Shown: positions 35,153 through 53,387, numbered from the stretch's first letter. The stretch: 64,000 nt of DNA from Planctomycetota bacterium (GCA_965223845.1 CBDCXR010000004.1:5376001-5440000); one strand, 5' to 3'. Numbers and translations: made by a program. The notes: generated by a model not told the origin, from the sequence alone.

Positions 35153-37459
35153 TCAGCGATCGTTCTCGTTTTGCCCCGCGTTCGTGTCCGCAGCGGCACC
35201 GTGCTTTCGAAGAAGCTCGGCGATCTTCGGCTTCGCTGCGTTTACCTCGTCGGGATCCACTTTCACTCGAAAGACGTTGAAGAGAAACCGCGCCGCGTTC
35301 TCGTCCAGCTCTCGCGCGGTTCCGTCGAGCGGCGTCGTGCCGTCGCGGTTCTTCGCGTCGGCGTCCGCGCCGTTCTCGAGAAGGAAGCGAACCGCCTTCA
35401 ACCGGCCGAGACCCGCTGCCCAGCTGAGCGCCGTCGACCCGAGTCCGTCGTGTTCATCGACATCTGTCGTTTCCAGATGACGCTTCAGTGCCGCGATGTC
35501 GCCCGCACGCGCGGCGGCCCAGAGGTCATCCGGCGGGTCGGCACCGTCGTCGCGACCCCGGTTTCCACCGAAGCGGTTCCGCGGGGCGCCGGCCGGAATG
35601 AGCGGCAACGCTCCCGGAGATCGCGTCCAGATCGGCATTCCATCCTTCGTCTCTTCGGCGATGTCGGCGCGACGATTTCGGATGAACGTCCGCACTCGAT
35701 CGAGATGGCGACCGAAACCTCGCTGCTCGCCGTCGCTCTCTAGATGCGGCTCGAGCATCTTCTCGATGCGATCGACCTCGGCGAGGAGCGCATCCTCTTT
35801 CCAGTGCTCGTCGAGGATCGATTGGAGCGTGTCTAAGTATCGCTCTCGTCCCCCGGATGTCTGGTAGAGGCGGTGCGCAATCAAACCCTCGGTCTTGACC
35901 GAAATCGGCACGCTTCGATCCGGGTTGATCTTGCTGTACTTCTCGAACAGCGAATCGGCCCCCCACGGGAGGAAATGGATCTTCCCGGACTTTGGATTCA
36001 AGTAGACGAAGAAGTTGTTTCGGTTGCCCGAGTAGCCGTCCCAGAATCCGAGCAATCCCTCGAGAGCCCAGTAGCGATAGAACGCGTCGAGATCGACGAA
36101 GTCCCCGATCGCTGCTCGCGCGCCGCCGGTGCGTCCACGCAGCTCGCCCGCGATGAGCATGTCCGAGCTCGTCGGTTCGACGTTGAGTCCATGGAGCGCG
36201 AGGACGTTCTCTCCCTGCCTGAGCTTGTCGCGGTGTTCCGAGACAAAAAACGGCTGGAACGATACCGCCGTGCCGTCGCCGTTCGGTCCGGTCGAGCCGG
36301 ACGTCCACGACAAATCCTCCGGAGCGTTTGCCGATGCGATGCGATGGCCGTTCAGGTACGCGACGAAGCCGTCGTCGAACTTCATCCGGAGAACGAGCTC
36401 CGAGATCGACGCCGGATCGTCGACGGTGAAGCGAAGCCGGACATAAACGGACTGCCCGCGTCCGAAGAGGTCCGCTTTGAAATCGAATTCCGGCGCGAGC
36501 AACGACTCGTAGCCGGAATCGTTCTCGTAACCCGCGCCGCCCTTGCCGGAAATCCAGCTCGAGTCGTCGAACTCGGGTTTCATCCAGATGTCGTCGACGT
36601 CTCCGTTCGTCGGGACCCATGCCCGAGCGAGGGCGTCGGCAGGAGCGAGCACATCGCCGCCGCTACCGCTGATCGCGTCGATCAGCTCCTTAATCTTCGC
36701 GCGCCCGGCCGCGTCGTCGCCTAACTTGTGCTCGAAGCTGTTCTCCCAGTCCTCGTAAAAATCAACGATCGTTCCCTCGTAGAGAACTCCGCTGGCATCC
36801 CCGTATCCGCGCGCGAGGAGAGGCCGCCTCGCCGTTTCGACGTGCGAGTAGATACCGAGACTTCTCCCGTTGACCGTCACACGTGCGAACGCGCAGCGAG
36901 GCGCCGGCGATCCGACCGCGTTGAAGAGTCGGTAGCTCAAGTACTGGCTGACGAGACTCGTGTCCTGTTGATTGTTGTTGAGCGTGAGGTTCCGAAGTCC
37001 CTCGATGCCTCCTTCGGGGTCGACGTGGTTCAGCTTGATCTTGAGCGAGGGACGCGACGAGCTGAGCGACCCGAGAAAACCCTTCTTTCGAAGTCCAACT
37101 TTGGGAAGCTCGACGCCGTCGATCGTGACGCTCGCGGGAACATATGTGAACGGGCTCGGAACCGGGCCGTGAAGACGAGCGGCCCCCAGCGCCGTGTACA
37201 CGTCTCGCGTCTGGAAGCGGAGGATATCCCAGTCCTCGCGCTGGACGGTGATTTGAACGTCGAGGACGCGGTCCGCCGGGAAGAGCTCGTCGAGCGTGAG
37301 ACCGGCGGATTTAGAATCGCTGCCTTCCGCAGCGGGAGAGTTCCGCTCCGACACAGCGGAAGTCGATTCGGCAGAATGGACGGCGCGACCAGACGAAAGT
37401 CCAACCGAGATCAAGACGGCGACGAGAGCCCCCGGAAACGAACGGACGGTCCTACTCAT
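35153..37459 (-). CDS. Secreted CotH-family kinase with an inserted jelly-roll domain and C-terminal ankyrin repeats
   Basis: Signal peptide; VGLRKKG, RPSLKIK, LTLNN..QD, APRCAFARVTVNG..LGIY..VE, WDGY..NRNNF, PWGAD; ankyrin G.TAL.WAA..G...AV.FLLENGAD. Confidence 0.85.
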   Translation of the reverse strand: MSRTVRSFPGALVAVLISVGLSSGRAVHSAESTSAVSERNSPAAEGSDSKSAGLTLDELFPADRVLDVQITVQREDWDILRFQTRDVYTALGAARLHGPVPSPFTYVPASVTIDGVELPKVGLRKKGFLGSLSSSRPSLKIKLNHVDPEGGIEGLRNLTLNNNQQDTSLVSQYLSYRLFNAVGSPAPRCAFARVTVNGRSLGIYSHVETARRPLLARGYGDASGVLYEGTIVDFYEDWENSFEHKLGDDAAGRAKIKELIDAISGSGGDVLAPADALARAWVPTNGDVDDIWMKPEFDDSSWISGKGGAGYENDSGYESLLAPEFDFKADLFGRGQSVYVRLRFTVDDPASISELVLRMKFDDGFVAYLNGHRIASANAPEDLSWTSGSTGPNGDGTAVSFQPFFVSEHRDKLRQGENVLALHGLNVEPTSSDMLIAGELRGRTGGARAAIGDFVDLDAFYRYWALEGLLGFWDGYSGNRNNFFVYLNPKSGKIHFLPWGADSLFEKYSKINPDRSVPISVKTEGLIAHRLYQTSGGRERYLDTLQSILDEHWKEDALLAEVDRIEKMLEPHLESDGEQRGFGRHLDRVRTFIRNRRADIAEETKDGMPIWTRSPGALPLIPAGAPRNRFGGNRGRDDGADPPDDLWAAARAGDIAALKRHLETTDVDEHDGLGSTALSWAAGLGRLKAVRFLLENGADADAKNRDGTTPLDGTARELDENAARFLFNVFRVKVDPDEVNAAKPKIAELLRKHGAAADTNAGQNENDR

Positions 37460-37713
37460 AGATCTCTCGACTCGCCTAATGCGTCGCTGATCGTCGCGAC
37501 GGAGGATCGAAACGGTCGTCCATCTGATGGATCGCGAACGCGAACTCCTATCGATCCGGATTCGATCCCCGACCGCACCGGGCGCGGAGCGAGTCGAATT
37601 CGGAGCCATGTTCCCCGGCGCTCAATGTAACCGGGACGAATCGCTGGCTCCAGCTTCCGAGCGCGTCGCGCGGCACGGGCGGTCGCCCGAGGACGTCCGC
37701 GCGCCCGGGAGAG

Positions 37714-37943
37714 ATTTACCACGAAGGGCACGAAGGACACGAAGAGAAGAGGTAGGAAAGAGAGTGAGAGACACTCTGTGTATCGCTTCGAGTGAACACG
37801 CTCGAACGATCGGCACTCGATTTCAAACGCTGGTGCGGTCCAGACGAACGCGACGCTCGACCACCAATCGGTCTCTTCCTCTAAATCTCTTTCTCAATAC
37901 CTCTCTTTCTTCCTTCGTGTCCTTCGTGCCCTTCGTGGTGAAT
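37714..37943. repeat. Long inverted repeat (perfect 27-bp arms) forming a ~230-nt hairpin/MITE-like element
   Basis: ACCACGAAGGGCACGAAGGACACGAAG at 37718-37744 and its exact reverse complement at 37913-37939; purine-rich and pyrimidine-rich inner flanks. Confidence 0.9.
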
Positions 37944-37963
37944 TCCTCTTCCAGGCCCGAGGC

Positions 37964-39001
37964 TCAGCCCTTCGCGACCGCCAAACGGCGCGAGAGCGCG
38001 TACGCGCCACCGAGCGCGAGCAACGCGACGAGGACGATGAGCCCGATCGGAGATGCCGCGGGCACGGGCGGAGCTTCTCCGATCCGCCACAGCTCGAGAA
38101 GCACGATGTCTCCTCCATTCGGGTCGTTGCCGTCCCCGTCGGGCCCGCCCGGTCCCGGATTCGAGTTTCCCTGGAGGAGATGCACGCGAACGTAGCCCTG
38201 CGTCACGTTCAGCGTTGGTGAATTCGCCGCACCGCTGCCATCGCCGCCGCTCGGCTCACCATTTTCGTTCATGTTCACAAAGACGGGATCGGGCGCCGTG
38301 CCGTCCCCCGGAGGTGCCTGCTTGTCACCGAACCCGACATGGGCGAAGACACCGGCGCCCGTGCGATCTGCTCGCGCTTGACCGGTCGTGTACTGCGCCT
38401 GGTCGTGATTCTTCACGAGGACGACGTGGTTCGCGCCGACGTTTTCGGGAGGACCGCCGCCGCCGTCCTCGGCGATAACGCGGTGCGCATGCGGGTTGTC
38501 CGCTTCTCCGATGACCGCCACGAAACGGTAGAGGCCGTTCGGGACATCGACGCGGAAGATTCCACCTTCGGGTGGACTACACGGCTCGTTCGGGCCGCCT
38601 GCCGTCGCCTCGTCACACGCATCGGCGAAGTTCTTGAAGCCGATGAAAGAGTCGTACAGCTCTTCCGGACACGAGTCTCCGAAGCGATTCCGGTTGTTCG
38701 GGGAGTCGTCGAACGGACCGAACTGCTCCGCGCCGTTTCGGCCCCCGGCACCCTCGTTCGTTACCTCGAAACCCCATCCGAGCCCCGGGTCGTACGCGAG
38801 CGCGTCGTGCGCCGCGACGCTGTTCGCGGAATGGTGGACCATCGTGTAGTTGGTCTCAGGGTCGTTGAAAGTCGGACACTCGAGGTTCCGCGAACCGAAT
38901 GCGAACGCCCCTTCTAGGGTCTGAGCCCTCGCGATGCCTCCCGCCGACGCCAAGAACAGCGCGGCAACACAACCGATCGAGCGACGAAGTCCTATCGACA
39001 T
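37964..39001 (-). CDS. Secreted protein consisting of one 'domain X' copy with a C-terminal IPTL-CTERM-like sorting signal
   Basis: Signal peptide (IARA|QT); domain shared with 44826 and 47307 proteins; tail VPAASPIGLIVLVALLALGGAYALSRR (motif + TM + basic residues). Confidence 0.85.
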   Translation of the reverse strand: MSIGLRRSIGCVAALFLASAGGIARAQTLEGAFAFGSRNLECPTFNDPETNYTMVHHSANSVAAHDALAYDPGLGWGFEVTNEGAGGRNGAEQFGPFDDSPNNRNRFGDSCPEELYDSFIGFKNFADACDEATAGGPNEPCSPPEGGIFRVDVPNGLYRFVAVIGEADNPHAHRVIAEDGGGGPPENVGANHVVLVKNHDQAQYTTGQARADRTGAGVFAHVGFGDKQAPPGDGTAPDPVFVNMNENGEPSGGDGSGAANSPTLNVTQGYVRVHLLQGNSNPGPGGPDGDGNDPNGGDIVLLELWRIGEAPPVPAASPIGLIVLVALLALGGAYALSRRLAVAKG

Positions 39002-39077
39002 GGTTCCCTCCGATCAACAACCGCTCCCTCGGGCGTGCGAACCCGAGAGGGACGACTCGACAGTACTCGAGGCACTG

Positions 39078-39087
39078 AAAACCCTAC
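39078..39087 (-). promoter_or_regulatory. Shared upstream motif GTAGGGTTTT (candidate -10 element or regulator site)
   Basis: Identical 10-mer at 53462-53471; 77 and 75 nt upstream of the respective starts. Confidence 0.4.
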
Positions 39088-39214
39088 ACCGAACATTCTA
39101 TCGAGCGGGTAAGATCGCCATCCATCCACAAGTCCTCTAGCCGCTCTGCATCCCGAACGCGGCCGAGACGGAATTCGCGTTCGTGACTCTCTTCCTCGCA
39201 CCGTTTCACCCAAG

Positions 39215-42200
39215 ATGATCCGAACCTCCATCCGCTCGATTCGTTCCGTCTCGCGGAACATACTCGTGTTGCTCCTCTGCGTCGTCGCGCGGGAAGCCGC
39301 CGCTGATCGAGTGACCTACATCGCCTACGAATCTACGTGGCGATTCCGGCTCGGCACGGCCGAGGCATCGAATCCGGTGTCCGAGTGGCGCGAACGCACT
39401 TACGACGACTCCGGCTGGTCCTCCGGGATGGCGCCCTTCGGATACGGCGACCCGCCGTTCGGAGTCGATCTCACGACGTTCGATCCCGTCATGCGCGGAA
39501 ACTACGCCTGCGTTTTTCTGCGCCGCGAGTTCGAGCTCACGAACAGTGCAGCCGTCGCTGCGCTCGATCTCGACGTCGATTACGACGACGGTTTCATCGC
39601 CTGGTTGAACGGCGAGGAGATTCTCCGGGTCAACATGGAAAGCGCCGTGCCGGGGAGTGCGGTGCGCTTCGATGAATTCGCGGATGACCAGCACGAATCG
39701 GGATCGCCCGAGACGTTTTCGGTCGCCGATCCCGGCAACGTCCTCGTCGACGGGACGAACGTTCTCTGTGTGCAGGTCTTCAACAACCAGATCAACAGCA
39801 GTGATCTCAAGCTCGACCTCGAGCTCTACGATCCCGACGGCCCCGACGTGTCGCCGCCCGCGATCGCGAGCGTGGCCCCGGCGCCGGGCGGAACCGTTCG
39901 CTCACTCACCGCGGCGACGGTCACGTTCACCGAGCCGGTCCTCGGAGTCGACGCCGCGGATCTCCTCGTAGCCGGCTCTCCGGCGACGTCCGTCGCCGGC
40001 ACGGGAGCGGGTCCCTACACCTTCTCGTTCGCCGAGCCTCCGGCCGGGGCGGTTCAGTTCACGTGGAGCGGCGCGCACGGGATCACCGACGACGCCGTAC
40101 CTCCGAACGCGCTCGAACCATTCGCATGGTCGGCGACCCTCGATCCCGATGCGCCTCTCGGCGATCTCGTCGTGAGCGAGATCCTCGCCTCGAATCGAAC
40201 TGGGATCACCGACCAAGACGGCGAGCGGAGCGACTGGTTCGAGGTGTGGAACCGCGGAACGGAAACGGTGAGCGCGGCGGGTTGGTCGGTTTCCGATGAT
40301 CCGGACGTTCCGGCGAAGTGGATCTTTCCCGCGGTCGACATTGCGCCGGGCGACTACATCGTCGTGTTCGCATCGGGAAAAGATCGCCGAGACGCGACCG
40401 ACGAACTCCACACGAGCTTTCGGCTCAGCACTGAGGGCGAGTACTTCGCCCTCTTCTCCCCGGACGAGCCTCGACGCGCGGTGACCGAGTTTTCGCCGCA
40501 GTTTCCGGATCAGCGAAGCGACATCGCCTACGGGCAGACCGCGCTCGGCGAAGCGCGCTATCTCGACCCGCCCACGCCGGGCGCGCCGAACTCGGCTGCA
40601 ACCGCGCTCGAGGGAAAGGTCGCGGAGCCGCACTTCAGCGTCGAGCGCGGGTTCTTCTCGGGGTCGATTCCGCTCAAGCTGACCGCGACGCCGGCCGATG
40701 CGACGATCCGATACACACTCGACGGCTCCGAGCCGACCGCGACGCGCGGGACCGTCTACTCGAACGAGCTCGTCGTCGAAGGGACGGCGAGCCGCGCGGT
40801 CATCACCGTGCGTGCGATCGCGACGAAGAGTGGTTACCTGCCGTCGACCGTCGTCACGCACACCTACATCTTTCCGTCTGAAGTCCGGCACCAGCCGGCC
40901 GATCCGAGCGGTTTCCCCGGCGGCTGGGGGAATCATCCCGACGCCGACTACGAGATCGACCCGCAGGTCGTCGGAGACGCGCGCTACTCACGAGACTTCG
41001 AAGACGGACTTCTCGACCTCCCGTCGATTTCGATCGTCATGCAGACGAGCGACATGTTCGGCTCCAGCGGAATCTACTCGAATCCCGGGGGAGAGGGCGT
41101 GCAGTGGGAGCGCGCCGCGTCGGTCGAAGCTCTCTATCCCGACGGTCGTGAGGGGTTCAACGTCAACTGCGGGATCCGCATCCAGGGAGGTGCGAGTCGG
41201 AGCACGTCGAAGTCGGCGAAGCACTCGTTCCGGTTTCTCTTCAAAGGCGATTACGGTCCGACCAAGCTCCGCTTTCCGCTCTTTCCGGACACCGACGTCG
41301 ACGAGTTCGACACGGTGATCCTCCGCGCCGGCTACAACAATTCCTGGATTCATTGGGACAGCGGTCAGCGCGCGCGCACGCAATACATCCGCGATCAGTG
41401 GATACGCGACACTCAGCGCGATATGGGTCAGCCGACTCCTCACGGGATCTTCGTCCACGTGTACGTGAACGGACTCTACTGGGGTCTCTACAACCTCGTC
41501 GAACGTCCGAGCGGTCCGTTCGCGGCGTCCCACCTCGGCGGGGAGCGCGAAGACTACGACGCACTCAACTCCGCCGAGCCGGTCGACGGCGACAAGAGCG
41601 CGTGGAACACGATGATCGGCATCGCGAACGGCGGACTGTCGTCGAATGCGGCGTACGAGAACATCCAGAACTATCTCGACGTGACCAATCTTTCGGACTA
41701 CATGATCGTCAACTTCTACGGCTCGAACGCAGACTGGCCGAGCCACAACTGGTACGCCGCGCGGCGGCGCGCGGCGGGGGCGCAATACAAGTTCTTTAGT
41801 TGGGACGCCGAGCGGACGTTCGAAGGCCTCACGTCGAACCGGACCGGAGTGAGCAACGGCGATTCCCCGGGGATCCTCTATTCGCGCCTCCGCGCGAACG
41901 CAGAGTACCGTCTCCTCTTCGCCGATCGCGTACACCGCTGGTTCTTCAACGGCGGCGCCCTGACTCCGACTGCGGTGCGCGAGCGCTGGCTCGCTCGCTC
42001 CGATCGCCTCGAGCGTGCGGTCGTGTGCGAGTCGGCGCGCTGGGGTGACTACCGGCGCGACGTGCACCAATCGAGCAACGGTCCGTACGAGTTCTATCGC
42101 CGCGATGAGTTTTGGATCCCGGAGAAGAACCGTCTCCTTTCGAACTACATACCGCAGCGATCGAACACCGTGCTCTCGCAATTTCGTTCGATCGATCTCT

Positions 42201-44512: not shown

Positions 44513-44825
44513 CCCGGATCCGGATTTGCATCCGGCGGAAACCCACGGGTACAGTTGACGTCGAACTCCGGGGTCCGCAGGAGCGCGGAGTTCAGGGTCG
44601 AATTCTCGATCGAGTCGCCCGCAATGCTCCGATAGGGGAAACGTTTGGGCGCCCCGATCGCGGTTTCTCGCTCTCGCGATTCAGGATTCATCCGGATTAG
44701 CCAGCAGTTCTCACCCGATTCGGTGAGCGCAGCGACGAGTCCGGAGCGCGAGAAAGAAACGACGTCCGATCGCCCGCGTCGCGACGGAGCGCGGCGCCGA
44801 GAGTTTCCTGGAGGGAGGGTCCACG

Positions 44826-47198
44826 ATGAGGCTGAACCGAAGCATCGTAGCGGGCGGATTTGCGGTCCTTTTGTGCGCAGCGGGTATCGAAAAGGCGAAC
44901 GCCGAGCCGGAGCTCGTCTGGGCATTCGCGTTCGGGTCGCGGAACCTCGAGTGCGAGACGGCGAGTGAGCCAGGCACGAACTACACCATGGTCTGGCAGC
45001 AGGGGAACGATTGGGCCCTCTCCGATCTCAGTTACGACCCGGATCGCGAATGGGGATACGAGGAGCTGTTCCCCGAAGCGTTCGACTGGGCGATCTACGG
45101 ACCGTTCGACGACTCGGCGAACAATCGGAACGCGTTTCCCGACGACTGCCCGTCGCAGATCTACGATTCCTTCATCGGCGCGAAGAACTTCCTCTCGGAA
45201 TGCAGCGAGCTCACCGTCGGCGATCTCGAGTCGACTTGTGCCGACGGCGGAATCACCGAAGAGGGAATCATCTTCCGGGTCGATGTCCCGAACGGTCTCT
45301 ACCGCTTTGTCGCCGCGGTCGGCTCGGCCGACAATCGGCACGCCCACCGCATCCTCGCGGAGGACGGCGGCGAGGGGACACCTGACCTCATCGGCGACAA
45401 CCACGTCGTCCTCGTCCACAACTACGACCAGGCCGAGCACGGCGTGGGTGTATTCGCACGCGTCGGCTTCGGCTGCCTGCTTCCGCCCGATCCGGGTCAG
45501 CCGCAATTCGTCAACATGGACAGCGAGGGCCTCATCACGGAGGACGCCCCCTCGAGTCCGCTTCTCGAAGTAACGGAGGGCTACATTCGTATCCATCAGC
45601 TCCAGGCGAACTCGAACGATGGTGCGGCCGGTACGAGAGATCCGAACGGCGGTGACATGGTTCTCCTCGAGCTGTGGAAAGTCGACGGCCCGGACGACGG
45701 CGCCGGACAACCGTTCTCCGTGAGCCGGAGCATTTCGCCGAGCCCGCGCTCGCCCGGGGAGGCGGTCGAAGTAACTCTGAGCGCGGCCGCCATCACCGGA
45801 GCGACGACGATTACGGAGGTGATCCCCGATGGGTGGAGCGTCGTCGCGGACGGAGGCGGGACGGTCGCCGGTCAAGAGATCAGCTTCTCGGTCACCGCGG
45901 ACGGCGATGTCACCTACAGCGCGAAGCCAGACGACGACGAGAGCTGCGAGCCCGCGTCCTTTTCCGGATCGGCCGTCGGCCCCGGCGATTGCAGCGCCGG
46001 CGTCACCGGGGACAGCGCCATCGCGTGTATCCAGCCGTTCGATTGCGAGACGCCGCCGGACGCGCCGGCCGTCGAGCTCGTCGCCGCCTTCCATTTCGGC
46101 GCCGCCGCTGTCGACTGCGCGTCGTTCAATGATCCGGACGTGAACTTCACGCCGGTCGTTCAGTCGTCTCCCGCCGATCTTCTCTTCGACGAGGATCGAG
46201 GCTGGGGATACGAGGAGATTCTTCCCGGCGACGCCAGCCGCGGCGGTTACGGAATGTTCGGCCCGTTCGATGACTCCCCAAACAATCGGAACCAGTTTCC
46301 GGATGCGTGCCCCGAACAGCTCTACGACTCGATGATCGGCGCCAAGAACTTCAGCTTCCCGTGCGACGAGCTCGCGGTCGGCAGCCTCGACGAACCGTGT
46401 GAGGAGGGAGGGATCGATCCCGAAGGAATCATTTTCCGCATCGACGACATCCCGAACGGGAAATACCGCTTCGTCGCCGCGGTCGGAGACCAGTTCCAGC
46501 ACGCGCACCGCATCGTCGTCGAGAACGGTGGCGACGGTCCGCCCGCGGATCGCTCCGACGAGTTTGTCGTCCTCGTGAACAACTTCGACCAGAACCAGTA
46601 CCCGATCGGAGAGACCGACCCGGCCAATCCCGGACGAAACGTTTACGCTCGCGTCGGGTTCGATGGTCGGATCCCACCACCGGGAGACGGAGTCGCACCG
46701 AGCCCGCAGTTCGTGAACATGGACGAATTCGGAGAAGCGACGGAGGACTGCCCGAGCAGCCCGACGCTCGAAGTGACCGAGGGCTACATCCGCGTTCACC
46801 AGCTCCAAGGAAACTCGAACGTGAATCCGGACACCGGCACTCCCGGCGATGCGAACGGCGGTGACCTCGTACTCATCGAGCTCTGGCGGCTGAGCGACGA
46901 CGGCGGCCAGGAGATCAGGCGCGGCGACGCCAACACCGACGGCGCCGTCAACATCGCCGACATGATCTTCATGCTGAACGATCTCTTCGGGGACGGCGGC
47001 GCACCGTCCTGCCTCGAAACGGCGGATGTGAACGGCGACGCGGCCTACAACATCGCCGACGCGATCTTCGGGCTGAACCGGCTCTTCGGCGACGGTCCGC
47101 CGCCGATCGACGGTGCAGGTCCGGAAGGGACCGACTGCGGCGCGGACCCGAACCCCGCGACCTCGCTCGGGTGTGATTCGTACGACAAGTGCCCGTAG
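44826..47198 (+). CDS. Secreted protein with two 'domain X' copies, an Ig-like spacer and a C-terminal dockerin-like module
   Basis: GGAGG RBS, signal peptide (ANA|EPEL); internal repeat ~44904-45680 and ~46071-46889; IRRGDANTDG...ADVNGD...NIADAI. Confidence 0.85.
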   Translation: MRLNRSIVAGGFAVLLCAAGIEKANAEPELVWAFAFGSRNLECETASEPGTNYTMVWQQGNDWALSDLSYDPDREWGYEELFPEAFDWAIYGPFDDSANNRNAFPDDCPSQIYDSFIGAKNFLSECSELTVGDLESTCADGGITEEGIIFRVDVPNGLYRFVAAVGSADNRHAHRILAEDGGEGTPDLIGDNHVVLVHNYDQAEHGVGVFARVGFGCLLPPDPGQPQFVNMDSEGLITEDAPSSPLLEVTEGYIRIHQLQANSNDGAAGTRDPNGGDMVLLELWKVDGPDDGAGQPFSVSRSISPSPRSPGEAVEVTLSAAAITGATTITEVIPDGWSVVADGGGTVAGQEISFSVTADGDVTYSAKPDDDESCEPASFSGSAVGPGDCSAGVTGDSAIACIQPFDCETPPDAPAVELVAAFHFGAAAVDCASFNDPDVNFTPVVQSSPADLLFDEDRGWGYEEILPGDASRGGYGMFGPFDDSPNNRNQFPDACPEQLYDSMIGAKNFSFPCDELAVGSLDEPCEEGGIDPEGIIFRIDDIPNGKYRFVAAVGDQFQHAHRIVVENGGDGPPADRSDEFVVLVNNFDQNQYPIGETDPANPGRNVYARVGFDGRIPPPGDGVAPSPQFVNMDEFGEATEDCPSSPTLEVTEGYIRVHQLQGNSNVNPDTGTPGDANGGDLVLIELWRLSDDGGQEIRRGDANTDGAVNIADMIFMLNDLFGDGGAPSCLETADVNGDAAYNIADAIFGLNRLFGDGPPPIDGAGPEGTDCGADPNPATSLGCDSYDKCP

Positions 47199-47240
47199 GG
47201 AAACGGGGCGACGCGGCTTGACCGCGTCGGCGAACTCGAG

Positions 47241-47278
47241 ACAGAGAAAGGCCCGCCGAACGGCGGGCCTTTCTCTGT
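47241..47278. terminator. Bidirectional intrinsic terminator between convergent genes
   Basis: Perfect 17-bp stem ACAGAGAAAGGCCCGCC / GGCGGGCCTTTCTCTGT with a GAAC loop. Confidence 0.85.
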
Positions 47279-47306
47279 TCTGGGCGTACGCGCGGCTTGT
47301 GCGGCC

Positions 47307-50300
47307 CTAGAACGCACACACATCCGGACAGCCGAGAACCGGCACGCATCCGGTCCCGAGTGACGGTGGCGGGCCGTCGGCGAAGAGGTAATTGAGGACG
47401 TAGAGCGCGTCGGCGACATTCACACCGGCATCGGCGTTCACGTCGAAGACCTTGGCGTTCGCTGCGCTGTCGATCGGCCCGTCGCAGGGGAGTCCGCCGG
47501 GATTCACAAAGAGCTCGACGAGGATCTTCACCCCGTCGGCGATGTCGAGGCGGCCGTCTTGATTCGCATCGCCGGGAATCTGTCCGCCGCCGAGGTCTTC
47601 GCCGACGAAGATGAACTGACTCGCGACATCCTCCGCGCCGTCGTCATCCGTGACGACGAGCGTAACGACGTAGTTTCCGGGCGCCGCGAAGGTGTGCCCG
47701 ATCGACGCGCTCGTCGACATCGCGCCGTCGTCGAAGTCCCAGAGATAGCTCACGATCTCGCCGTCGAGATCGTAGGACTGCGTCCCGTCGAAGAACACCT
47801 CGAGCGGAGCGTCACCCGACGACGGGCTCGCGGCAATCACCGCGCCCGGGAGGAGGTTGCCGCCCCCGGAAACCGCGGTGTTCGCGATCCCCGGTGTGCC
47901 ACCGTCGCGCGTCGAAGCCGCCCAATTGACGGGATCACTTCCGTAGGACGTCGCTACGATGCGCTCGAGAGAAGGCCCCGCGCCGTCTGCTTCGGTCGGC
48001 CACGGGTCTTTGTCATTGTAGCGGACCTCGTCGACGACGGTCGGTACGACACCGAAATTCGCGAAGAACAGCGGGCGTTCGAGACGAAGTCGCTCGCCGC
48101 CGTCGGACACGCCGCCGCCAAACGCGCCGACGATCGGTACGGATCCCGGGACGGCGTGAAGGGAACGAAACGCCGCCGGATCGATACCGACGACGAGGAG
48201 GTAGCCTCCTGACGGTACGACGTCACCCGCAGAAAACTCGAAGAAACCGCTCTCCGTCGAGTTGAGGACGCCGCGAAGGTTCCAGCCAACTCCGAGCGCG
48301 TCATCATAGAGTGAAACGGGGGCTCCGGTGGGATTGAAGATCTCGATGAACTCCTCGCGGTCGCCGCCGGGGTTGTACATGATCTCGTTGATGACGAGAG
48401 GACCGAACCGCGGCTCTGCGTTCGGCTCTCCGGTCCCCGTGCGAAACTCTTCAACGCTCGCCGGGGAGTCGGCGCCGAACGTCCGCGCGCTCAGCGCGCC
48501 GAAGTCGATGTCCTCGCTCGTCGCGAAGCGCCCAAACGAGACTCCGGTCTCGCCCGCTTCGTAGCGACCTTCAGCGATGTGACCCGTGAGAGCGCCGCCG
48601 CCGTCGGCGGACGCGAGAAACACACTGCCGCCGGCGGGCTCGAGCGAGAGACCCGCCGGCTCGAAATCGATCGCGTAAAACACGATGGACTCGCCCGAGG
48701 GAAGAATCGTTCCGTCGGGAATCCGGTATTTTCGCAGGCTAGCCGCGTCGGTTCGTGCGTCGCTGAGGAACCACCCTCCGAGATCGACGGCGGCGGGATC
48801 TCGGTTGAAGAGCTCGATCGCGCCTTCGAGGGGATCGGCCGCGTTGGCGAGAATCTCGCTCACCACGACCGCACCTTCGGCCGGGCCGAGATCGTCGCTT
48901 CCGGGCGAACCGTCGACGTTTCGGCTCGCGCCCCACGAAGACGGTGAATCCGGGTCGCCGGTCTCGTCGATGCGCACTAGCGAATAACCGAAGCCGTCGG
49001 CCCCGATCGGCCAGAGCTGTCCGTCGTCGTAATCGACGTCGAAGATGAGCTCACCCGCCGCGTTGCGAAGCTGGATCTCCTCGCCGCCGTTCGCGAGCTG
49101 ACCGAAATACTCGCCGTCGACGTCGACTCCCGGGTACCGCGAGGCGAACGAGGCAGGATCGGAGACGAGGACCACGAACGCACCCGGGGCCAGCGTCGCG
49201 CTCGAGTCGAAGGTGAAATCGATGCCGGAGAACCTCGCCCCGGCGAGATCGATCGTCCGCGTCCCCGTGTTCTTCAGCTCGAGAAACTCGAAGCCGTTCC
49301 CGCCGACCGGATTGAACATGATCTCCGTCACGCGCAGCACTTCGCGCGGATCGGCAAACGAAAACGTGGCCTCCGCGAGCGCGCTCCAAGTCGTCCCCGA
49401 GCGAGTCCGCGCAAGGACGTGCGCGTGATCGGTGAGAATGATCGGATCTTCGTACGACTCCGACCGGCCCGACACCGCGCCCGATCCGAACACCCGCGGA
49501 TCCGTACCGTCCGTCGTGAAGTAGATCGTTCCGTTCGTTCCTGCGGGAAGCGACATCGAGAGAACGAATCCCGGATCGACCTCGCCGCCGTGCTGACTCA
49601 GAATCGGCGCCCCGAGATTCGGGTAGAGCCCGCGGCTCCTGAGCTGGCCGAGCACGTTCCCGGAGCGATTCGGAAAGTACTGCGTGAGGAGCCAGTTGAG
49701 CTCTGCCATCCACTCGTCGTTCCGTGTGTAGGGCTCGCTCGGCCGGCGCGTATCCCCCCAGCGGGCGGCCTCGCAGGCGATCGCCGGATCGACCTCGTCG
49801 ATGCGACGCATCCAGTGCGCCGCGGGTCGGTTGCGCTCGGGCTGCGCGGGATCCCACGCGGGATCGTCCTCGTCGACATAGAGGATGCCGCCATTAAAGA
49901 AATGCCGATGGGCTTCGTCGGCAAAGAGGAGACGAAACTCGGGACTCGCTCGCAGCCGGTCGTAGATTTCCCCGGGCGTGCCGCTTCGCGACTCGCTCGT
50001 GCGATCGATCGAAACGCTCTTCAGCGTGTGCTCGGCGTCCCAGCTATGAAACTGGAAGCCGAAGCCGGGCTGACGGAACTTGGTGGCGTACCAGTTGTGG
50101 TGCGGCCAGTCGTCATTCCCGCAGAAAAAGTTGACGAGCATGTAGTTGGCGAAGCTGCGGATGTCGAGGTGGTTCTCGAGATCGAGGTAGTTGCTCGTAT
50201 TCGAGAGATCGCGCCTGACGAAGTTCATCATCGTGCTCCACGAGCTGCTCGATCCGTCGACGACGTTCGATCCGCTGTGGCGAAGAGCGTCGTACTGCGT

Positions 50301-53300
50301 TTTGTCGCCGCCGTAGTGGGACGCGGCAAACGATGCGTCGGCACGCTCGTGGAGATCGAAGACGCCCCAGTAGAGGCCGTTCAGATAGAGGTGAAAGAAG
50401 ATGTCGTGCGGAGCGAGGCCCCCCGCCGCTTTCTGAAGGTCGCTCACGTACTGGTCGCGACAGTACTGACCGCGGACGCGCTGGCCGTGGTTCGGATGCT
50501 GCCACGTCTGATTCATGTGCGCATCGAGGACGATCGTGTCGAACTCGTCGACCGTCGAATCTGGAAACAAGCGATGGCGGAGCTTCGTCGGGCCGTACTC
50601 GCCCTTGAAGAGAAGGCGCATGCTGACCTTGATCACCTTCCAGTTGTTCACGCTGCTGCCGCCCTGAATCCGCATGCCGCAGTTCGCTTGGTGGCTCGCG
50701 CGCCCGCTGGGGTAGATGAACTCGGCCGACACCGGGCGTTCCCAAGAGGGACCGTCGCGCGAAGGATTCGCGTAGATCCCGGTCGAGGACGAGAAGAGGT
50801 CGTCCACATCGGCGACGACGGAGAGAGTCGGAATCGACGTCAATCCCTCGAGAATCAAATTGCGGTGACCGGGATCGTTGACGACGTCGGGGTCCATCTC
50901 GTAGTCGGCGGTCTGCGAGTTCCACGTCGACGGAAAACCGGAGGGGTTCCGCGGCTGAGTGAGGACGTGGTCGACGAAGATGTAAGAGTAAGTCGACACC
51001 CGCGACGGCAAGAACCCGCTTCGGTACGCGATCGCGCGCAGTGTGACGACCGCGCGCGACGCCGACCCACTGATCTGAAAGGGTCCCGTGTACAGCGTTC
51101 CCGACGTCGCCGATGGCGGGCTGCCGTCGAGCGTGTATCGGATCTGCGCGCCCGGAGTTCCCGACGAAAGAAACACATCGAAGGGCGCGTCGTAGAACCC
51201 TCGCCCCGGCGCCGCAACGGGCTCGAGGACGTAGCCGTCGTAAGTGACGCCACCCGAGTTCGGCGCGCCGGGAGTCGGCGCCGTGAAGTAGACGAGCTCG
51301 CCGGCGCCGTTTCGCCCGTAGGAGATGTCGGGCTGCTGCGGCGGGAATCGCGGCGCGATCTCGGAAATCACTTGCCGCGGCGACTCGGCGTTGAAGAGAC
51401 CGAAATACTCGCCCTCGGCGCTCAATCGGAAGCTGGTGTGCGGCTCGCCGCCGGTCAGGTCCTTTCCCGTCGCGAAAACTACGACGTGTTCCCCTGGCGC
51501 GAGAACGATGTTCGGAAGCACCCAGAGACCGGGCTCGTTCGGGTCGTCCGTGACGGACCACCCCGCGAGCGAAACGCTCGCGTCGCCGTCGTTCACGAGC
51601 TCGAACCAATCGCCTTCCTCGTTCTCGAAGTCGCGGAGGCCACTGCGGTTGACGGCGAGGATCTCGTTGATCGCGACGGTCCCGAGCGGTGCGTCGGGAT
51701 CGATGGTGTAAGTCCAGCTTCCGCCGGCGAAGGGATTCGAAAAATCGCCGAGGTCGACGATCCCGTGCCCCGAGCTCCACTCGACCGTGACGACCCCGGG
51801 CGCGGCCGGCGAAAACGAGAACACGTACGGCCCTCGGCCTTCACCCACGACCGACGATGCCGGAGCCCCATCGACCAGGAGATCGCCCGCGTCGACGCCG
51901 GTTACATCTTCGTCGAAGGTCACCTCGATTTGGCTGAGGCTCCGAAACGTACCGCCCGCGAACGGAACGAGGCTCGAAACGCTGGGAGGAACGAGATCCG
52001 GAGCGATCGGATCCACGATTTCGATGTCGAAGAAGAGGTCCGTGCTCGAGATCGTCGCGTTCAGCACTTCGACGCAGACGATATTCGTCCCGTTGACGAG
52101 GTAGTCGAGCGGATTCGGAAGCTGAAACTCCTCGATCGAACCGGACTCGTGAGTTCCCGCCGCGCGATCATCGTAGAGGACGGGGTCGCCCTCGGTGCCG
52201 TTTGCGTTGACGCGCAGGACCTCGATCTCGTTGATCCACATGACGAAGCCGTCGTCGTAATTCGCACGCGCGAGAAGCTCGCTCACCGCGGTGATGTTCG
52301 AGACCTCGAAGGTCTGCCGGAGAAAGAGCGTCGTGTAGTTCGACTGCATGGGCGGGGAGAGATCGGAGAGATCCGTCGCGATTCCCGCCTCACCGTAGCC
52401 GAACGGGGCTGCTCCGGCCGCCCAACTGGCGTCGTCGAAATTGAGTGCACGCCACGCGGGAACAGGACTCGAAGCCTCACTCTGACCGCGGAAGTAGCGC
52501 CAAGTTGAGCCCGGCTCGATCGCCCGGAACGAATCCTCGACCCGCCAGACCTCGAAGATGACGAGATCGCCGCCGTTCGCGTCCGTCCCCGACGTCTTTC
52601 CCTTGAGCTGGTGGACACGAATGTGACCGCTCGTGACATCGAGCGTGGGACTGCTCGCGCTCGCGGCGACGAGACCGTTCTCGCCGAAGTCGACGAATCC
52701 GTTCACCGCCGCCGGAGGCGGAACGAGGCCGTCGAATCCGACGCGCGCGAATACGCCTTGACCGTGCTCGGCTTGATCGAAGTTGTCGACGAGGACGACG
52801 TGATTCGCACCGAGTGACGCGGGGCCGCCGGCGCCGCCATCTTCTACGGTGAGGCGATGCGCATGGAGATTGTCAGCGGAGCCAACCGCCGAAACGAAAC
52901 GATAGACGCCGGGAGGAAGATCGATGCGAAAGATGATTCCCTCGGGCGGCGCGCACTCGCCCGTCGCCGGCGCCGGCTCCGACGAACACGGCGACGCGAA
53001 CGTTTTTGCGCCGATGAACGAGTCGTAGATCTCTTCGGGACAGCTATCCCCGAACGCGTTTCGATCGTTCGCGCTGTCGTCGAACGGACCGAAGATCCCG
53101 TAGCCCGCGCGCGTCGTATCGTCCGGGTCGACGACCTCGTACCCCCACCCCCGGCCCGAGTTGTACTCGAGGTTCGCCGGCGAGGTCTGGACGACGGCCG
53201 TATAGAACTGGCCGGGCGCGTTGTGAAGCTCGCACGAGAGATCGCGCGATCCGAAGATGAACGCTCGGACGAGCTCGGGCTCGGCGTGAAGGGCGCGCGA

Positions 53301-53387
53301 GGAGGAGGTCGTCGCGGGCCCGAGGAAACCGAGCAAAAAGAAACCAGCGAGAACGAGGCGTGAATGCCAGCGCGAGTTAGACGTCAC
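47307..53387 (-). CDS. Large secreted CotH kinase with N-terminal 'domain X': X, jelly-roll, Ig-like, LTD repeats, CotH, PKD, dockerin-like (2026 aa)
   Basis: Signal peptide (ALHA|EPEL); collinear with the 39215 protein after domain X; GMRIQGG, NGLYWGVFDLHER, NDDWPHHNWY, WDAE; GDANQDG...DVNADAG dockerin loops. Confidence 0.88.
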   Translation of the reverse strand: MTSNSRWHSRLVLAGFFLLGFLGPATTSSSRALHAEPELVRAFIFGSRDLSCELHNAPGQFYTAVVQTSPANLEYNSGRGWGYEVVDPDDTTRAGYGIFGPFDDSANDRNAFGDSCPEEIYDSFIGAKTFASPCSSEPAPATGECAPPEGIIFRIDLPPGVYRFVSAVGSADNLHAHRLTVEDGGAGGPASLGANHVVLVDNFDQAEHGQGVFARVGFDGLVPPPAAVNGFVDFGENGLVAASASSPTLDVTSGHIRVHQLKGKTSGTDANGGDLVIFEVWRVEDSFRAIEPGSTWRYFRGQSEASSPVPAWRALNFDDASWAAGAAPFGYGEAGIATDLSDLSPPMQSNYTTLFLRQTFEVSNITAVSELLARANYDDGFVMWINEIEVLRVNANGTEGDPVLYDDRAAGTHESGSIEEFQLPNPLDYLVNGTNIVCVEVLNATISSTDLFFDIEIVDPIAPDLVPPSVSSLVPFAGGTFRSLSQIEVTFDEDVTGVDAGDLLVDGAPASSVVGEGRGPYVFSFSPAAPGVVTVEWSSGHGIVDLGDFSNPFAGGSWTYTIDPDAPLGTVAINEILAVNRSGLRDFENEEGDWFELVNDGDASVSLAGWSVTDDPNEPGLWVLPNIVLAPGEHVVVFATGKDLTGGEPHTSFRLSAEGEYFGLFNAESPRQVISEIAPRFPPQQPDISYGRNGAGELVYFTAPTPGAPNSGGVTYDGYVLEPVAAPGRGFYDAPFDVFLSSGTPGAQIRYTLDGSPPSATSGTLYTGPFQISGSASRAVVTLRAIAYRSGFLPSRVSTYSYIFVDHVLTQPRNPSGFPSTWNSQTADYEMDPDVVNDPGHRNLILEGLTSIPTLSVVADVDDLFSSSTGIYANPSRDGPSWERPVSAEFIYPSGRASHQANCGMRIQGGSSVNNWKVIKVSMRLLFKGEYGPTKLRHRLFPDSTVDEFDTIVLDAHMNQTWQHPNHGQRVRGQYCRDQYVSDLQKAAGGLAPHDIFFHLYLNGLYWGVFDLHERADASFAASHYGGDKTQYDALRHSGSNVVDGSSSSWSTMMNFVRRDLSNTSNYLDLENHLDIRSFANYMLVNFFCGNDDWPHHNWYATKFRQPGFGFQFHSWDAEHTLKSVSIDRTSESRSGTPGEIYDRLRASPEFRLLFADEAHRHFFNGGILYVDEDDPAWDPAQPERNRPAAHWMRRIDEVDPAIACEAARWGDTRRPSEPYTRNDEWMAELNWLLTQYFPNRSGNVLGQLRSRGLYPNLGAPILSQHGGEVDPGFVLSMSLPAGTNGTIYFTTDGTDPRVFGSGAVSGRSESYEDPIILTDHAHVLARTRSGTTWSALAEATFSFADPREVLRVTEIMFNPVGGNGFEFLELKNTGTRTIDLAGARFSGIDFTFDSSATLAPGAFVVLVSDPASFASRYPGVDVDGEYFGQLANGGEEIQLRNAAGELIFDVDYDDGQLWPIGADGFGYSLVRIDETGDPDSPSSWGASRNVDGSPGSDDLGPAEGAVVVSEILANAADPLEGAIELFNRDPAAVDLGGWFLSDARTDAASLRKYRIPDGTILPSGESIVFYAIDFEPAGLSLEPAGGSVFLASADGGGALTGHIAEGRYEAGETGVSFGRFATSEDIDFGALSARTFGADSPASVEEFRTGTGEPNAEPRFGPLVINEIMYNPGGDREEFIEIFNPTGAPVSLYDDALGVGWNLRGVLNSTESGFFEFSAGDVVPSGGYLLVVGIDPAAFRSLHAVPGSVPIVGAFGGGVSDGGERLRLERPLFFANFGVVPTVVDEVRYNDKDPWPTEADGAGPSLERIVATSYGSDPVNWAASTRDGGTPGIANTAVSGGGNLLPGAVIAASPSSGDAPLEVFFDGTQSYDLDGEIVSYLWDFDDGAMSTSASIGHTFAAPGNYVVTLVVTDDDGAEDVASQFIFVGEDLGGGQIPGDANQDGRLDIADGVKILVELFVNPGGLPCDGPIDSAANAKVFDVNADAGVNVADALYVLNYLFADGPPPSLGTGCVPVLGCPDVCAF

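What the first reader, a model, noticed from the sequence alone, without database searches (positions are those of the whole stretch)
35153..53387. Candidate surface-displayed, dockerin-linked extracellular kinase system (3 CotH kinases + 4 copies of an unnamed domain)
Seen: five consecutive genes, all with signal peptides. They are CotH+ankyrin (35153-37459, -), X+membrane anchor (37964-39001, -), CotH-LTD-PKD-dockerin (39215-44512, +), X-Ig-X-dockerin (44826-47198, +) and X-CotH-LTD-PKD-dockerin (47307-53387, -). Established: CotH proteins are atypical kinases related to the secretory Fam20C family and phosphorylate spore-coat proteins in Bacillus; dockerins assemble cellulosome-type complexes; planctomycetes do not form endospores. 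Inference: a modular extracellular phosphorylation complex in which domain X is the substrate, adaptor or targeting module, tethered by the CTERM-anchored copy and/or dockerins. It could act in surface-layer assembly, glycan modification or mineral binding, since the proteins are very Asp/Glu-rich.
Basis: partly seen in the sequence, partly recalled or inferred. Interest (0 to 1): 0.85.

Follow-up and report, generated by a model that had tools for sequence, protein, structure and literature searches.

The report
Sugar-binding-like domain paired with secreted CotH proteins
A previously unnamed 270-residue domain, probably a carbohydrate-binding module, is repeatedly encoded beside or fused to one branch of the many secreted CotH kinase-like proteins of a planctomycete, which hints at a shared surface or sugar-directed job but not at a special kinase complex.

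Summary
The five secreted genes and the four copies of domain X are real. X has no Pfam, NCBIfam or PDB sequence match. A confident model (pLDDT 96) is a CBM/malectin-like jelly roll closest to the YxiM N-domain (Z 11.9). X is a small family (188 clusters among 1.84 billion representatives). It occurs N-terminal, C-terminal or doubled, most often fused to LamG, with CBM and PEP-CTERM fusions rarer, so it behaves like a binding module and not like a kinase substrate.

The other parts are generic in this genome. There are 70 CotH matches, and 309 ORFs carry the same C-terminal dockerin-like tag.

X occurs only in this locus. In another family of the same order, orthologues form two separate pairs: (P0005 + P0002) and (P0004 + P0003). 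X-adjacent CotH genes of five relatives fall in two CotH clades. All ten members examined keep both catalytic aspartates.

P0001 (CotH+ankyrin) has Gly at the second aspartate, and its orthologues lie on other contigs than X.

The five-gene unit is therefore not conserved, and a dockerin-assembled complex is not supported. The X–CotH link is real. Kinase activity and ligand are untested.

The parts
35153..37609 (-). P0001: secreted CotH-like protein with a GH2-N-like jelly roll inserted in the CotH domain (36110-36658) and C-terminal ankyrin repeats (about 35255-35524). The likely true start is the Met at 37459. It is a neighbour only and not a conserved part of the system.
   Evidence: CotH E 3.7e-32, Ank_2 E 4.7e-10. 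Gly at the D251-equivalent ('WGAD'); orthologues of 53-62% identity lie on contigs other than the X contigs; long branch outside the X-linked clades.
37964..39001 (-). P0002: signal peptide, X domain (38072-38926) and a C-terminal hydrophobic helix with a basic tail (37967-38065). The tail is a PEP-CTERM/IPTL-CTERM-like sorting or anchor signal.
   Evidence: IPTL_CTERM at 15.7 bits, below its 20.5 cut-off; 10 of 89 near-length X homologues carry PF07589; two exosortase matches in the genome; 50%-identical orthologue next to the P0005 orthologue in G005.
39215..44512 (+). P0003: signal peptide, GH2-N-like jelly roll (39296-39859), Ig-like stretch, LTD, CHB_HEX_C, CotH (about 41102-42286), CHB_HEX_C, further LTDs (4 LTD stretches in all), PKD, and a dockerin-like end with a Cys tail (about 44243-44509). 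CotH clade A.
   Evidence: both catalytic Asp kept ('NADWP', 'WDAER'); clade A, support 96; 52.7%-identical orthologue beside the P0004 orthologue in G005.
44826..47198 (+). P0004: signal peptide, X (44904-45713), an unassigned spacer of about 120 aa, X (46068-46910), and a dockerin-like end with a Cys tail (46896-47195).
   Evidence: Dockerin_1 E 5.2e-5, above cut-off. E 2.9e-38 to the A5 profile; spacer has no Pfam match. X-spacer-X proteins of about 1150-1270 aa are the commonest form in relatives.
47307..53387 (-). P0005: signal peptide, X (52521-53282), then the same architecture as P0003: GH2-N-like 51972-52535, CotH about 49536-50744, LTDs, PKD, dockerin-like 47361-47573. CotH clade B.
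   Evidence: both Asp kept ('NDDWP', 'WDAEH'); clade B, support 100; full-length orthologue (54% identity, 2042 aa) in G005.

Best explanation
Domain X is a new, narrowly distributed family. It is a derived form of the galactose-binding-domain-like / malectin-like carbohydrate-binding fold, with the YxiM/beta-agarase GBD as closest relative, enlarged by about 130 residues of conserved insertions and two likely disulfides.

X acts as a binding or targeting module. In this order of Planctomycetota it has become linked to two sister-like clades of secreted multidomain CotH-LTD proteins. In clade B it is fused to the N-terminus (P0005) and a membrane- or exosortase-anchored X protein is encoded beside it (P0002). 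In clade A a separate X-spacer-X protein is encoded beside it (P0004 with P0003).

The window holds both ancient pairs side by side. P0001, an unrelated CotH-ankyrin gene that probably lacks normal catalysis, is only a neighbour.

Inferred working model: the X modules hold the CotH-LTD proteins, which are themselves full of sugar-binding-like domains, at a particular glycan on the cell's own surface or on a substrate or prey. The CotH domain then acts there as an ATP-dependent phosphotransferase on a protein or sugar.

Shown here: the architecture, the fold of X, the family's spread, the gene linkage, and retention of the two catalytic Asp. Inferred only: the ligand, the catalysis and the location.
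For: Fold of X:
- The AF2 model has pLDDT 96.4 and pTM 0.94.
- Its best structural match is the YxiM N-domain, 2o14_A, with Z 11.9, rmsd 2.5, 143 residues aligned and 24% identity. Next come the GH2 C-terminal CBM-like domains (Z 10.4, 9.8), the FERONIA malectin-like domain (Z 9.8), many CBMs (Z 6-7.6) and malectin (Z 6.8). The top Foldseek hit is the same protein (E 2.4e-5).
- With a widened profile, 2o14 is the only one of 177,635 PDB sequences with E up to 10. Its E is 0.21, and it shares the 'GYG' and 'F.VD.PNG.Y' motifs.
- A distant family member, P0229, has a sub-threshold PF21254 AGA-YXIM_GBD hit inside its X-like region (E 0.0082).
- Atlas leads point to AGA-YXIM_GBD (0.88) and Malectin (0.86). 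Both are below the 0.9 mark.

X behaves as a module:
- 188 representative clusters reach E <= 0.001. X is found at N-termini, at C-termini and doubled.
- Of 116 longer homologues, 34 carry LamG PF13385, others carry CBM4_9, CBM9 or PA14, and only 4 carry CotH.
- 10 of 89 near-length homologues carry PEP-CTERM.

Linkage to CotH:
- X occurs 4 times in the genome, all in this locus.
- G005, from another family, has the P0005 and P0002 orthologues adjacent on one contig and the P0004 and P0003 orthologues adjacent on another.
- CotH is the immediate neighbour or is fused in 6 of 23 X-bearing regions from 16 relatives. These six lie in 5 genomes of 3 families.
- All six relatives' X-adjacent CotH domains fall in two clades (support 96 and 100) of a 45-row tree.
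- All 10 members of those clades that were examined keep both Asp. These are equivalent to B. subtilis D228 and D251, whose mutants are inactive (PMC7821199 passages).

Other sugar-related hints:
- The N-terminal domain of the CotH proteins models as a GH2-N sugar-binding jelly roll (Z 12.0; 33 chains at Z >= 8).
- In genus g5, the X-X genes lie among glucose/sorbosone dehydrogenase, GFO/IDH/MocA and PQQ-propeller genes.
Against: - No ligand, binding or activity was tested.
- The four X copies have no Pfam match even at E 10. The PDB sequence match is not significant on its own (E 0.21).
- About half of X (the conserved insertions, with many invariant polar residues such as R124, D126, H145 and E277) has no counterpart in the CBM matches. 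It could form a catalytic or protein-binding site.
- Most X genes are not next to CotH: 17 of 23 regions, and 0 of 7 regions in genus g5. Eight of those 17 are contigs under 8 kb and say little.
- Most fusions are to LamG, not to CotH.
- The same genome has a tandem clade A + clade B CotH pair without any X.
- The tree is the quick IQ-TREE run, not the finished careful one. It holds no non-adjacent CotH from relatives, so the clade specificity is tested only against this genome's paralogues.
- Related genomes are not independent samples.
- A source of ATP outside the cytoplasmic membrane is unexplained.
Confidence: 0.5

Rival explanations
1. This is a dedicated, surface-tethered extracellular phosphorylation complex. 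Its parts are assembled through dockerins and the anchored X copy, and X is the kinase's substrate or a protein adaptor.
For: - X/CotH pairing and fusion are conserved.
- Both catalytic Asp are kept in P0003, P0005 and their clades.
- The layout resembles a cellulosome: anchor-X (P0002), X-X-dockerin (P0004) and enzyme-dockerin (P0003), as read.
- Every non-anchored X protein examined ends in the dockerin-like module.
Against: - The dockerin-like module sits on 309 ORFs, while X occurs 4 times.
- No cohesin match lies in the window.
- X is a compact, Ser-poor CBM-like fold. CotB and CotG, the known substrates, are marked by Ser/Lys/Arg-rich repeats.
- In most family members X is joined to LamG or CBM modules with no kinase.
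- The five genes are not syntenic elsewhere.
Confidence: 0.12
2. The CotH-LTD proteins and X proteins are adhesins or surface-coat components. They work by binding, in the way that Mucorales CotH proteins act as host-cell ligands. Kinase chemistry is irrelevant or vestigial, and the pairing reflects co-assembly into a surface layer or holdfast.
For: - The proteins stack binding-type modules: X, GH2-N-like, LTD, PKD, CHB_HEX_C.
- A shared C-terminal tag occurs on hundreds of secreted proteins.
- An anchored X copy exists.
- A cellulosome review says the role of cellulosomal CotH proteins is unclear and may be structural as well as regulatory (PMC12484212 passage).
- The Mucorales invasin role is recalled. 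It was seen here only in listing titles and abstract starts.
Against: Both catalytic Asp are strictly kept in all 10 clade members examined and in 44 of 49 CotH ORFs of the genome. That argues for retained chemistry.
Confidence: 0.15
3. X is itself an enzyme, for example a jelly-roll glycan lyase, hydrolase or modifying enzyme. Its conserved insertions form the active site, and the CotH proteins are partners in processing the same polymer.
For: - X is unusually large for a CBM: 270 aa, of which about 145 align to CBMs.
- It is very conserved, at 55-65% identity between families, with many invariant Arg, Asp, His and Glu residues.
- It lies among sugar oxidoreductase genes in genus g5.
Against: - None of the 50 rows shown in the structural search aligns X to a jelly-roll catalytic domain; where a hit is an enzyme chain, the description or the aligned range points to an accessory non-catalytic module.
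- Doubling and free placement at either end of proteins are typical of binding modules.
Confidence: 0.1
4. There is no functional link. The cluster is a by-product of local duplication in a genome crowded with CotH genes.
For: - The genome has 70 CotH matches, and relatives have 25-88 first-look candidates, so chance neighbours occur.
- P0001's adjacency is indeed not conserved.
- Genus g5 keeps X-X without CotH.
Against: - Both pairs are kept at about 50-54% protein identity in another family.
- Adjacency recurs in 3 further lineages and always with the same two CotH clades.
- By my rough estimate, chance adjacency is about 2% per gene (about 60 CotH among several thousand genes), against 6 of 23 observed.
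Confidence: 0.08

Closest known systems
Cellulosomal CotH proteins of Clostridium thermocellum: CseP (Cthe_0044, listed as CotH) and Cthe_0239 (listed as LTD, LTD, Fn3, CotH). Also dockerin-CotH proteins of anaerobic fungi.
   Same: These are secreted CotH domains joined to lamin-tail domains and listed among cellulosomal proteins (PMC6083626 table passage; titles and listing). Their function there is also unknown (PMC12484212 passage).
   Different: - Here no cohesin scaffold lies in the locus.
- The dockerin-like end carries a Cys-rich tail and is a genome-wide tag.
- The proteins are three to four times larger.
- They are paired with domain X, which those systems are not reported to have. 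I did not search them for X.
Bacillus subtilis CotH with its substrates CotB and CotG
   Same: Same Pfam family. The profile matches the solved B. cereus CotH structure 5jd9 at E 1.2e-24. The two aspartates equivalent to D228 and D251 are kept in P0003 and P0005.
   Different: B. subtilis CotH is a small single-domain spore-coat protein (about 42.8 kDa; PMC7821199 passage) that acts on Ser/Lys/Arg-rich repeat proteins encoded next to it. Here there are signal peptides, giant multidomain proteins and no repeat-type substrate gene. The neighbour is a folded CBM-like protein.
YxiM / beta-agarase galactose-binding-domain-like module (Pfam PF21254); malectin and CBM57-like domains
   Same: Same jelly-roll core (Z 11.9, 24% identity over 143 residues to 2o14; Z 9.8-10.4 to malectin-like and GH2 C-terminal domains). 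Shared short motifs.
   Different: X is nearly twice as long, with conserved insertions and four invariant Cys. It does not reach any Pfam threshold. It forms its own tight family, seen so far almost only in records labelled Planctomycetota or Phycisphaerales.
Fam20C/Fam20B secretory-pathway kinases (recalled; the relation of CotH to the Fam20C family is stated in a PMC7821199 passage)
   Same: Kinase-like fold working outside the cytosol. The idea that such kinases may phosphorylate sugars as well as proteins is my recollection (Fam20B, POMK).
   Different: Those enzymes work in the ATP-supplied Golgi lumen. No ATP source is known for a bacterial surface. No direct comparison was run here.

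Membership tests
CotH kinase family (PF08757) | Match to the family profile above the curated cut-off | tested here: met
   P0001 112.6 bits, P0003 80.1 bits and P0005 54.3 bits, against a cut-off of 23.8; the profile of these domains hits solved CotH 5jd9 at E 1.2e-24.
CotH kinase family (PF08757) | Aspartate equivalent to B. subtilis D228 (the D228Q mutant is inactive) | tested here: met
   D is present in P0001 ('FWDGY'), P0003 ('NADWP') and P0005 ('NDDWP'). The residue's role is from PMC7821199 passages.
CotH kinase family (PF08757) | Aspartate equivalent to B. subtilis D251 (the D251A mutant is inactive) | tested here: met
   This holds for P0003 and P0005 ('WDAE') and for all 10 clade A/B members examined. 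It is NOT met in P0001, which has Gly ('WGAD'); this was confirmed with a profile that excludes P0001.
CotH kinase family (PF08757) | ATP-dependent phosphotransfer | not testable with these tools
   Needs purified protein.
Dockerin type I (PF00404) / cellulosome-type assembly | Profile match above cut-off | tested here: inconclusive
   P0004 is at 23.8 bits against a cut-off of 22.9 (met), P0005 is at 16.8 (below), and P0003 has no hit. A local profile of the family's C-termini finds all three. Two 'D.N.DG...D'-type loop-helix repeats are visible.
Dockerin type I (PF00404) / cellulosome-type assembly | Cohesin-bearing scaffold as partner, encoded with the system | tested here: not met
   6 cohesin matches in the genome (4 over cut-off). 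None lies within the window (C4:5376001-5440000). Several lie in ORFs that also carry dockerin.
AGA-YXIM_GBD (PF21254) / galactose-binding-domain-like CBM fold | Profile match | tested here: not met
   none of the 4 X copies matches any Pfam family at E 10. Only the distant relative P0229 has a sub-threshold hit (E 0.0082, 16.5 bits against 27).
AGA-YXIM_GBD (PF21254) / galactose-binding-domain-like CBM fold | Same fold as the solved member (YxiM N-domain, 2o14) | tested here: met
   Z 11.9, rmsd 2.5, 143 residues aligned, 24% identity, top of 48,161 chains; top Foldseek hit; the only PDB sequence hit (E 0.21).
AGA-YXIM_GBD (PF21254) / galactose-binding-domain-like CBM fold | Carbohydrate binding | not testable with these tools
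   Needs glycan arrays or calorimetry.
PEP-CTERM / IPTL-CTERM exosortase sorting signal (P0002 C-terminus) | Profile match; short motif, hydrophobic helix and basic tail at the very C-terminus; exosortase in the genome | tested here: inconclusive
   IPTL_CTERM at 15.7 bits, below its 20.5 cut-off. The helix and the 'SRRLAVAKG' tail are visible. PF07589 occurs on 10 of 89 near-length X homologues.
Lamin tail domain (PF00932) | Profile match above cut-off | tested here: met
   P0003 E 8.8e-41 and P0005 E 1.1e-48, with 4 stretches each.

The most novel reading that the evidence does not exclude
X is the missing receptor for the planctomycete dockerin-like C-terminal module, or for a subset of those modules. 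P0002 would be a membrane-anchored base. P0004 (X-X-dockerin) would be an adaptor. P0003 and P0005 would be the catalytic CotH cargo. Together they would form a cohesin-independent, cellulosome-like scaffold that displays extracellular kinases. The single complex prediction gave no answer either way, so this is not excluded.
Probability: 0.07. Interest if true: 0.8.

Novelty: new variant of a known kind. Interest (0 to 1): 0.45.

Why it matters
Secreted CotH-LTD-dockerin proteins are known from cellulosomes, but nobody knows what they do. In this planctomycete order they have expanded to dozens of giant genes per genome. My two whole-word full-text searches for CotH with Planctomycetota or Planctomycetes found no paper that discusses this: 0 papers, and 2 papers of which neither concerns it (one opened, one judged by its title).

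A tightly conserved, unnamed, probably glycan-binding domain that tracks two particular CotH clades gives a concrete way in. Finding the ligand of X would show where those CotH proteins act and what they might phosphorylate. It also defines a new domain family for the databases.

Tried and rejected
- Direct sequence searches of X against PDB, Pfam and NCBIfam found nothing.
- phmmer of single CotH domains against PDB found nothing. Only profiles reached 5jd9.
- The first profile (A3) was swamped by ankyrin hits, so I rebuilt it without the ankyrin part (A4).
- Complex prediction of X (alignment A2) with the dockerin-like end (alignment A5) gave 'no answer': score 0.00 against a mark of 0.32, and the controls were not run. 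This is evidence neither for nor against binding.
- The look-up of sequencing runs listed no RNA holder, so expression could not be examined.
- The promoter and terminator scan of 35000-53700 found nothing above the shuffled expectation: 0 promoters against a mean of 1.5, and 12 terminators against a mean of 14.2.
- Paper search was badly framed (min_terms 2) and returned papers without 'CotH'.
- The word_start search for 'CotH' returned 40 papers; the two I opened matched only the author name Schoepp-Cothenet.
- Nguyen et al. 2016 (PMC4922149) is not held. The roles of D228 and D251 are therefore taken from passages of PMC7821199, and what Nguyen et al. say about CotH outside spore formers could not be read.
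- Supplements were not consulted.
- The idea that the Asp/Glu content points to mineral binding was rejected.
- The idea that P0001 belongs to the system was rejected.
- The careful tree search did not finish in 300 s, so the quick tree was used. Rows with under 300 profile positions covered were dropped first, which left 39 of 49 G000 ORFs plus 6 from relatives.
- The 17 loci come from the same species-representative genomes as the G handles, so they are not an independent sample.
- One X-bearing contig (G028:C830, 2.3 kb) was scanned only.

Full report
**Observation.** The region holds five large ORFs on the strands and at the coordinates given. Pfam confirms three things:
- CotH in P0001, P0003 and P0005;
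- ankyrin repeats in P0001;
- four LTD stretches, CHB_HEX_C/Fn3_assoc and PKD in P0003 and P0005.

Dockerin_1 passes its cut-off only in P0004. All five proteins begin with a basic stretch followed by a hydrophobic one, as signal peptides do. This was judged by eye.

The four X copies are 53-57% identical, with about 100 invariant columns that include four Cys. A search of the whole 7.93-Mb genome finds X only at these four places.

**What X is.** X has no match in Pfam (E up to 10), NCBIfam or PDB sequences. Homologues from metagenomes gave a 48-row alignment and a very confident model, with pLDDT 96.4 and pTM 0.94.

An exhaustive structural comparison puts the N-terminal domain of B. subtilis YxiM first: 2o14_A, Z 11.9, rmsd 2.5, 143 residues, 24% identity. 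It is followed by:
- the C-terminal CBM-like domains of Bacteroides GH2 glucuronidases (Z 10.4, 9.8);
- the malectin-like domain of FERONIA (Z 9.8);
- a long list of carbohydrate-binding modules and malectin (Z 6-7.6).

Foldseek agrees on the top hit. Three weaker lines point the same way:
- A widened sequence profile finds 2o14 as the only PDB sequence at E up to 10 (E 0.21). It shares the 'GYG' and 'F.VD.PNG.Y' motifs.
- A distant family member has a sub-threshold PF21254 (AGA-YXIM_GBD) hit in its X-like part.
- The language-model atlas lists AGA-YXIM_GBD and Malectin clusters at 0.84-0.88, which is below its 0.9 mark.

X is therefore a derived, enlarged member of the galactose-binding-domain-like / malectin-like fold. 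It does not belong to any curated family. Roughly 130 of its 270 residues are conserved insertions of unknown role.

**How X is used elsewhere.** The family is small. It has 188 clusters at E <= 0.001 among 1.84 billion representatives, and 118 of them reach 1e-30. Where records carry labels, these are almost all Planctomycetota or Phycisphaerales.

X sits at N-termini, at C-termini, or twice in one protein. Among 116 longer homologues:
- 34 carry LamG (PF13385);
- others carry CBM4_9, CBM9, PA14 or PKD;
- 4 carry CotH (P0166, P0184, P0191, P0201);
- 2 more carry LTD without a listed CotH.

Ten of 89 near-length homologues carry PEP-CTERM. This free shuffling is what binding modules do. It is not what is expected of a dedicated kinase substrate.

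X is also compact, acidic and Ser-poor (4-8% Ser). [quoted passage not shown]

**What is generic.**
- The genome has 70 CotH matches spread over the chromosome.
- Relatives in four families have 12-88 first-look candidates each. A fifth family of small genomes has almost none.
- A profile of the locus family's C-terminal module (two dockerin-like loop-helix repeats plus a Cys-rich tail) finds 309 ORFs of 200 aa or more in this genome.
- In 247 of those ORFs the module is at the very C-terminus, and 39 of the 49 CotH ORFs carry it.
- Only six weak cohesin matches exist, and none lies in the window.

Signal peptide, CotH, LTD, PKD and the dockerin-like end are thus the standard build of a large class of secreted proteins here. 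They are not the mark of a special complex. D+E content is also ordinary.

**What is specific.** In G005, a 9.4-Mb genome of another family in the same order, two pairs exist:
- A full-length orthologue of P0005 (2042 aa, 54% identity) lies next to an orthologue of P0002 (345 aa, 50%) on one contig.
- An orthologue of P0004 (1157 aa) lies divergently next to an orthologue of P0003 (52.7%) on another contig.

I scanned 23 X-bearing contig regions from the 16 relatives that have X (16 of 40 searched). A CotH gene is fused or is the immediate neighbour in six of them. These six are in five genomes of three families.

In a tree of 45 CotH domains, all six group with P0003 or P0005 in two clades:
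- Clade A has support 96 and holds 4 rows, of which 3 are X-linked.
- Clade B has support 100 and holds 6 rows, of which 5 are X-linked.

The two non-linked members are a tandem pair elsewhere in this genome. By my rough estimate, chance adjacency would be about 2% per gene. Relatedness of the genomes inflates any formal test, so I give none.

Against the link:
- In genus g5, 0 of 7 regions have CotH nearby. The X-spacer-X gene there lies among sugar dehydrogenase and oxidoreductase genes.
- Eight negative regions are contigs too short to judge.

**The CotH domains.** A profile of these domains matches solved B. cereus CotH, 5jd9, at E 1.2e-24. The two aspartates lie 23 residues apart and align with B. 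subtilis D228 and D251, whose mutants are inactive. Both are kept in P0003, in P0005, in all 10 clade A/B members examined, and in 44 of the genome's 49 CotH ORFs.

P0001 differs:
- It has Gly at the second position, also when aligned to a profile built without it.
- It sits on a long branch outside the two clades.
- It carries a GH2-N-like jelly roll inserted in the CotH domain.
- It has orthologues of 53-62% identity in at least ten relatives, all on contigs other than those with X.

It is a neighbour, not a conserved part of the system.

The N-terminal domain of P0003 is the same domain that follows X in P0005. It models as the sugar-binding N-domain of GH2 enzymes: pLDDT 82.9, Z 12.0, and 33 chains at Z 8 or more.

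**Most likely mechanism.** What is shown:
- two ancient gene pairs, each joining an X protein with a clade-specific secreted CotH-LTD protein;
- X is a CBM/malectin-like module;
- one X copy carries a C-terminal helix and basic tail of the exosortase-sorting type. Its profile score is below cut-off, and exosortases are present;
- the CotH domains keep their two key aspartates.

What is inferred: X binds a defined glycan, either on the cell's own envelope or on a substrate. It thereby positions the CotH-LTD proteins, which then phosphorylate a protein or sugar there. I put this at about 0.5.

The rivals are:
- a purely adhesive or structural role (0.15);
- X as an enzyme (0.10);
- no functional link (0.08).

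**Comparison and novelty.** Dockerin-bearing CotH proteins with LTDs are already listed among C. thermocellum cellulosomal proteins (CseP, Cthe_0239; PMC6083626 table passage). A review states that their role is unclear (PMC12484212 passage). The 'dockerin-linked extracellular CotH' idea is therefore not new.

What is new is domain X as a family, and its conserved pairing with two CotH clades in Planctomycetota. Whole-word full-text searches for CotH with Planctomycetota returned 0 papers. With Planctomycetes they returned 2 papers. One concerns DGR targets (passages read) and the other is a survey of swimming microbes (title only).

Noticed in passing
whole genome G000 (window = C4:5376001-5440000) and relatives G001-G028: CotH is massively expanded. 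There are 70 Pfam matches in this 7.9-Mb genome, mostly in ORFs of 1000-2000 aa, and 12-88 first-look candidates in relatives of four families. A fifth family of roughly 3-5-Mb genomes has almost none. 44 of 49 ORFs here keep both catalytic Asp. Neither whole-word search of CotH with Planctomycetota/Planctomycetes returned a paper that discusses this.
   Followed up: partly
whole genome G000; in the window at 44243-44509, 46896-47195 and 47361-47573: A C-terminal module made of two dockerin-like repeats and a Cys-rich tail ('C.P.P...GC...C') sits on 309 ORFs of 200 aa or more. In 247 of them it is at the very C-terminus. It looks like a general sorting or surface-attachment tag and not like a cellulosome part.
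   Followed up: partly
G000:C4:5971048-5981141: One clade-A and one clade-B CotH paralogue lie in tandem about 540 kb from the window, without any X gene. The A+B combination may itself be a conserved unit.
   Followed up: no
window 33536-35146 (+): A CYTH + CHAD protein (triphosphate-tunnel enzyme plus polyphosphate-granule-type domain) is convergent with P0001 and ends 7 bases from it. This phosphate-metabolism gene beside a kinase-like cluster is probably a coincidence.
   Followed up: no
window 58216-59502 (+): A PTP/DSP-like phosphatase with an intact 'HCKRGVDRT' CX5R motif lies behind a single transmembrane helix that is preceded by a basic stretch. The catalytic domain may therefore face outward. 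It lies 5 kb from the CotH genes, beyond a PSCyt/PSD1-DUF1501 pair.
   Followed up: no
L043:4489-13085 and the matching parts of L044-L049 (genus g5): In the small marine-type genomes, the X-spacer-X gene is flanked by glucose/sorbosone dehydrogenase with a cytochrome c domain, two GFO/IDH/MocA oxidoreductases and a PQQ-like propeller. The roughly 450-aa spacer between the two X copies has no Pfam match.
   Followed up: partly
G000:C4:3293000-3293458, 3362670-3363302, 4513984-4514661, 2441829-2443316: ORFs of 466-655 aa combine weak cohesin matches with dockerin matches. They are possible small cohesin-dockerin proteins in a planctomycete.
   Followed up: no
window 36110-36658 (-): In P0001 a GH2-N-like jelly roll is inserted inside the CotH domain, between its two matched halves. 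The same domain type is N-terminal or internal in very many other CotH proteins of these genomes (40-50% identity).
   Followed up: partly
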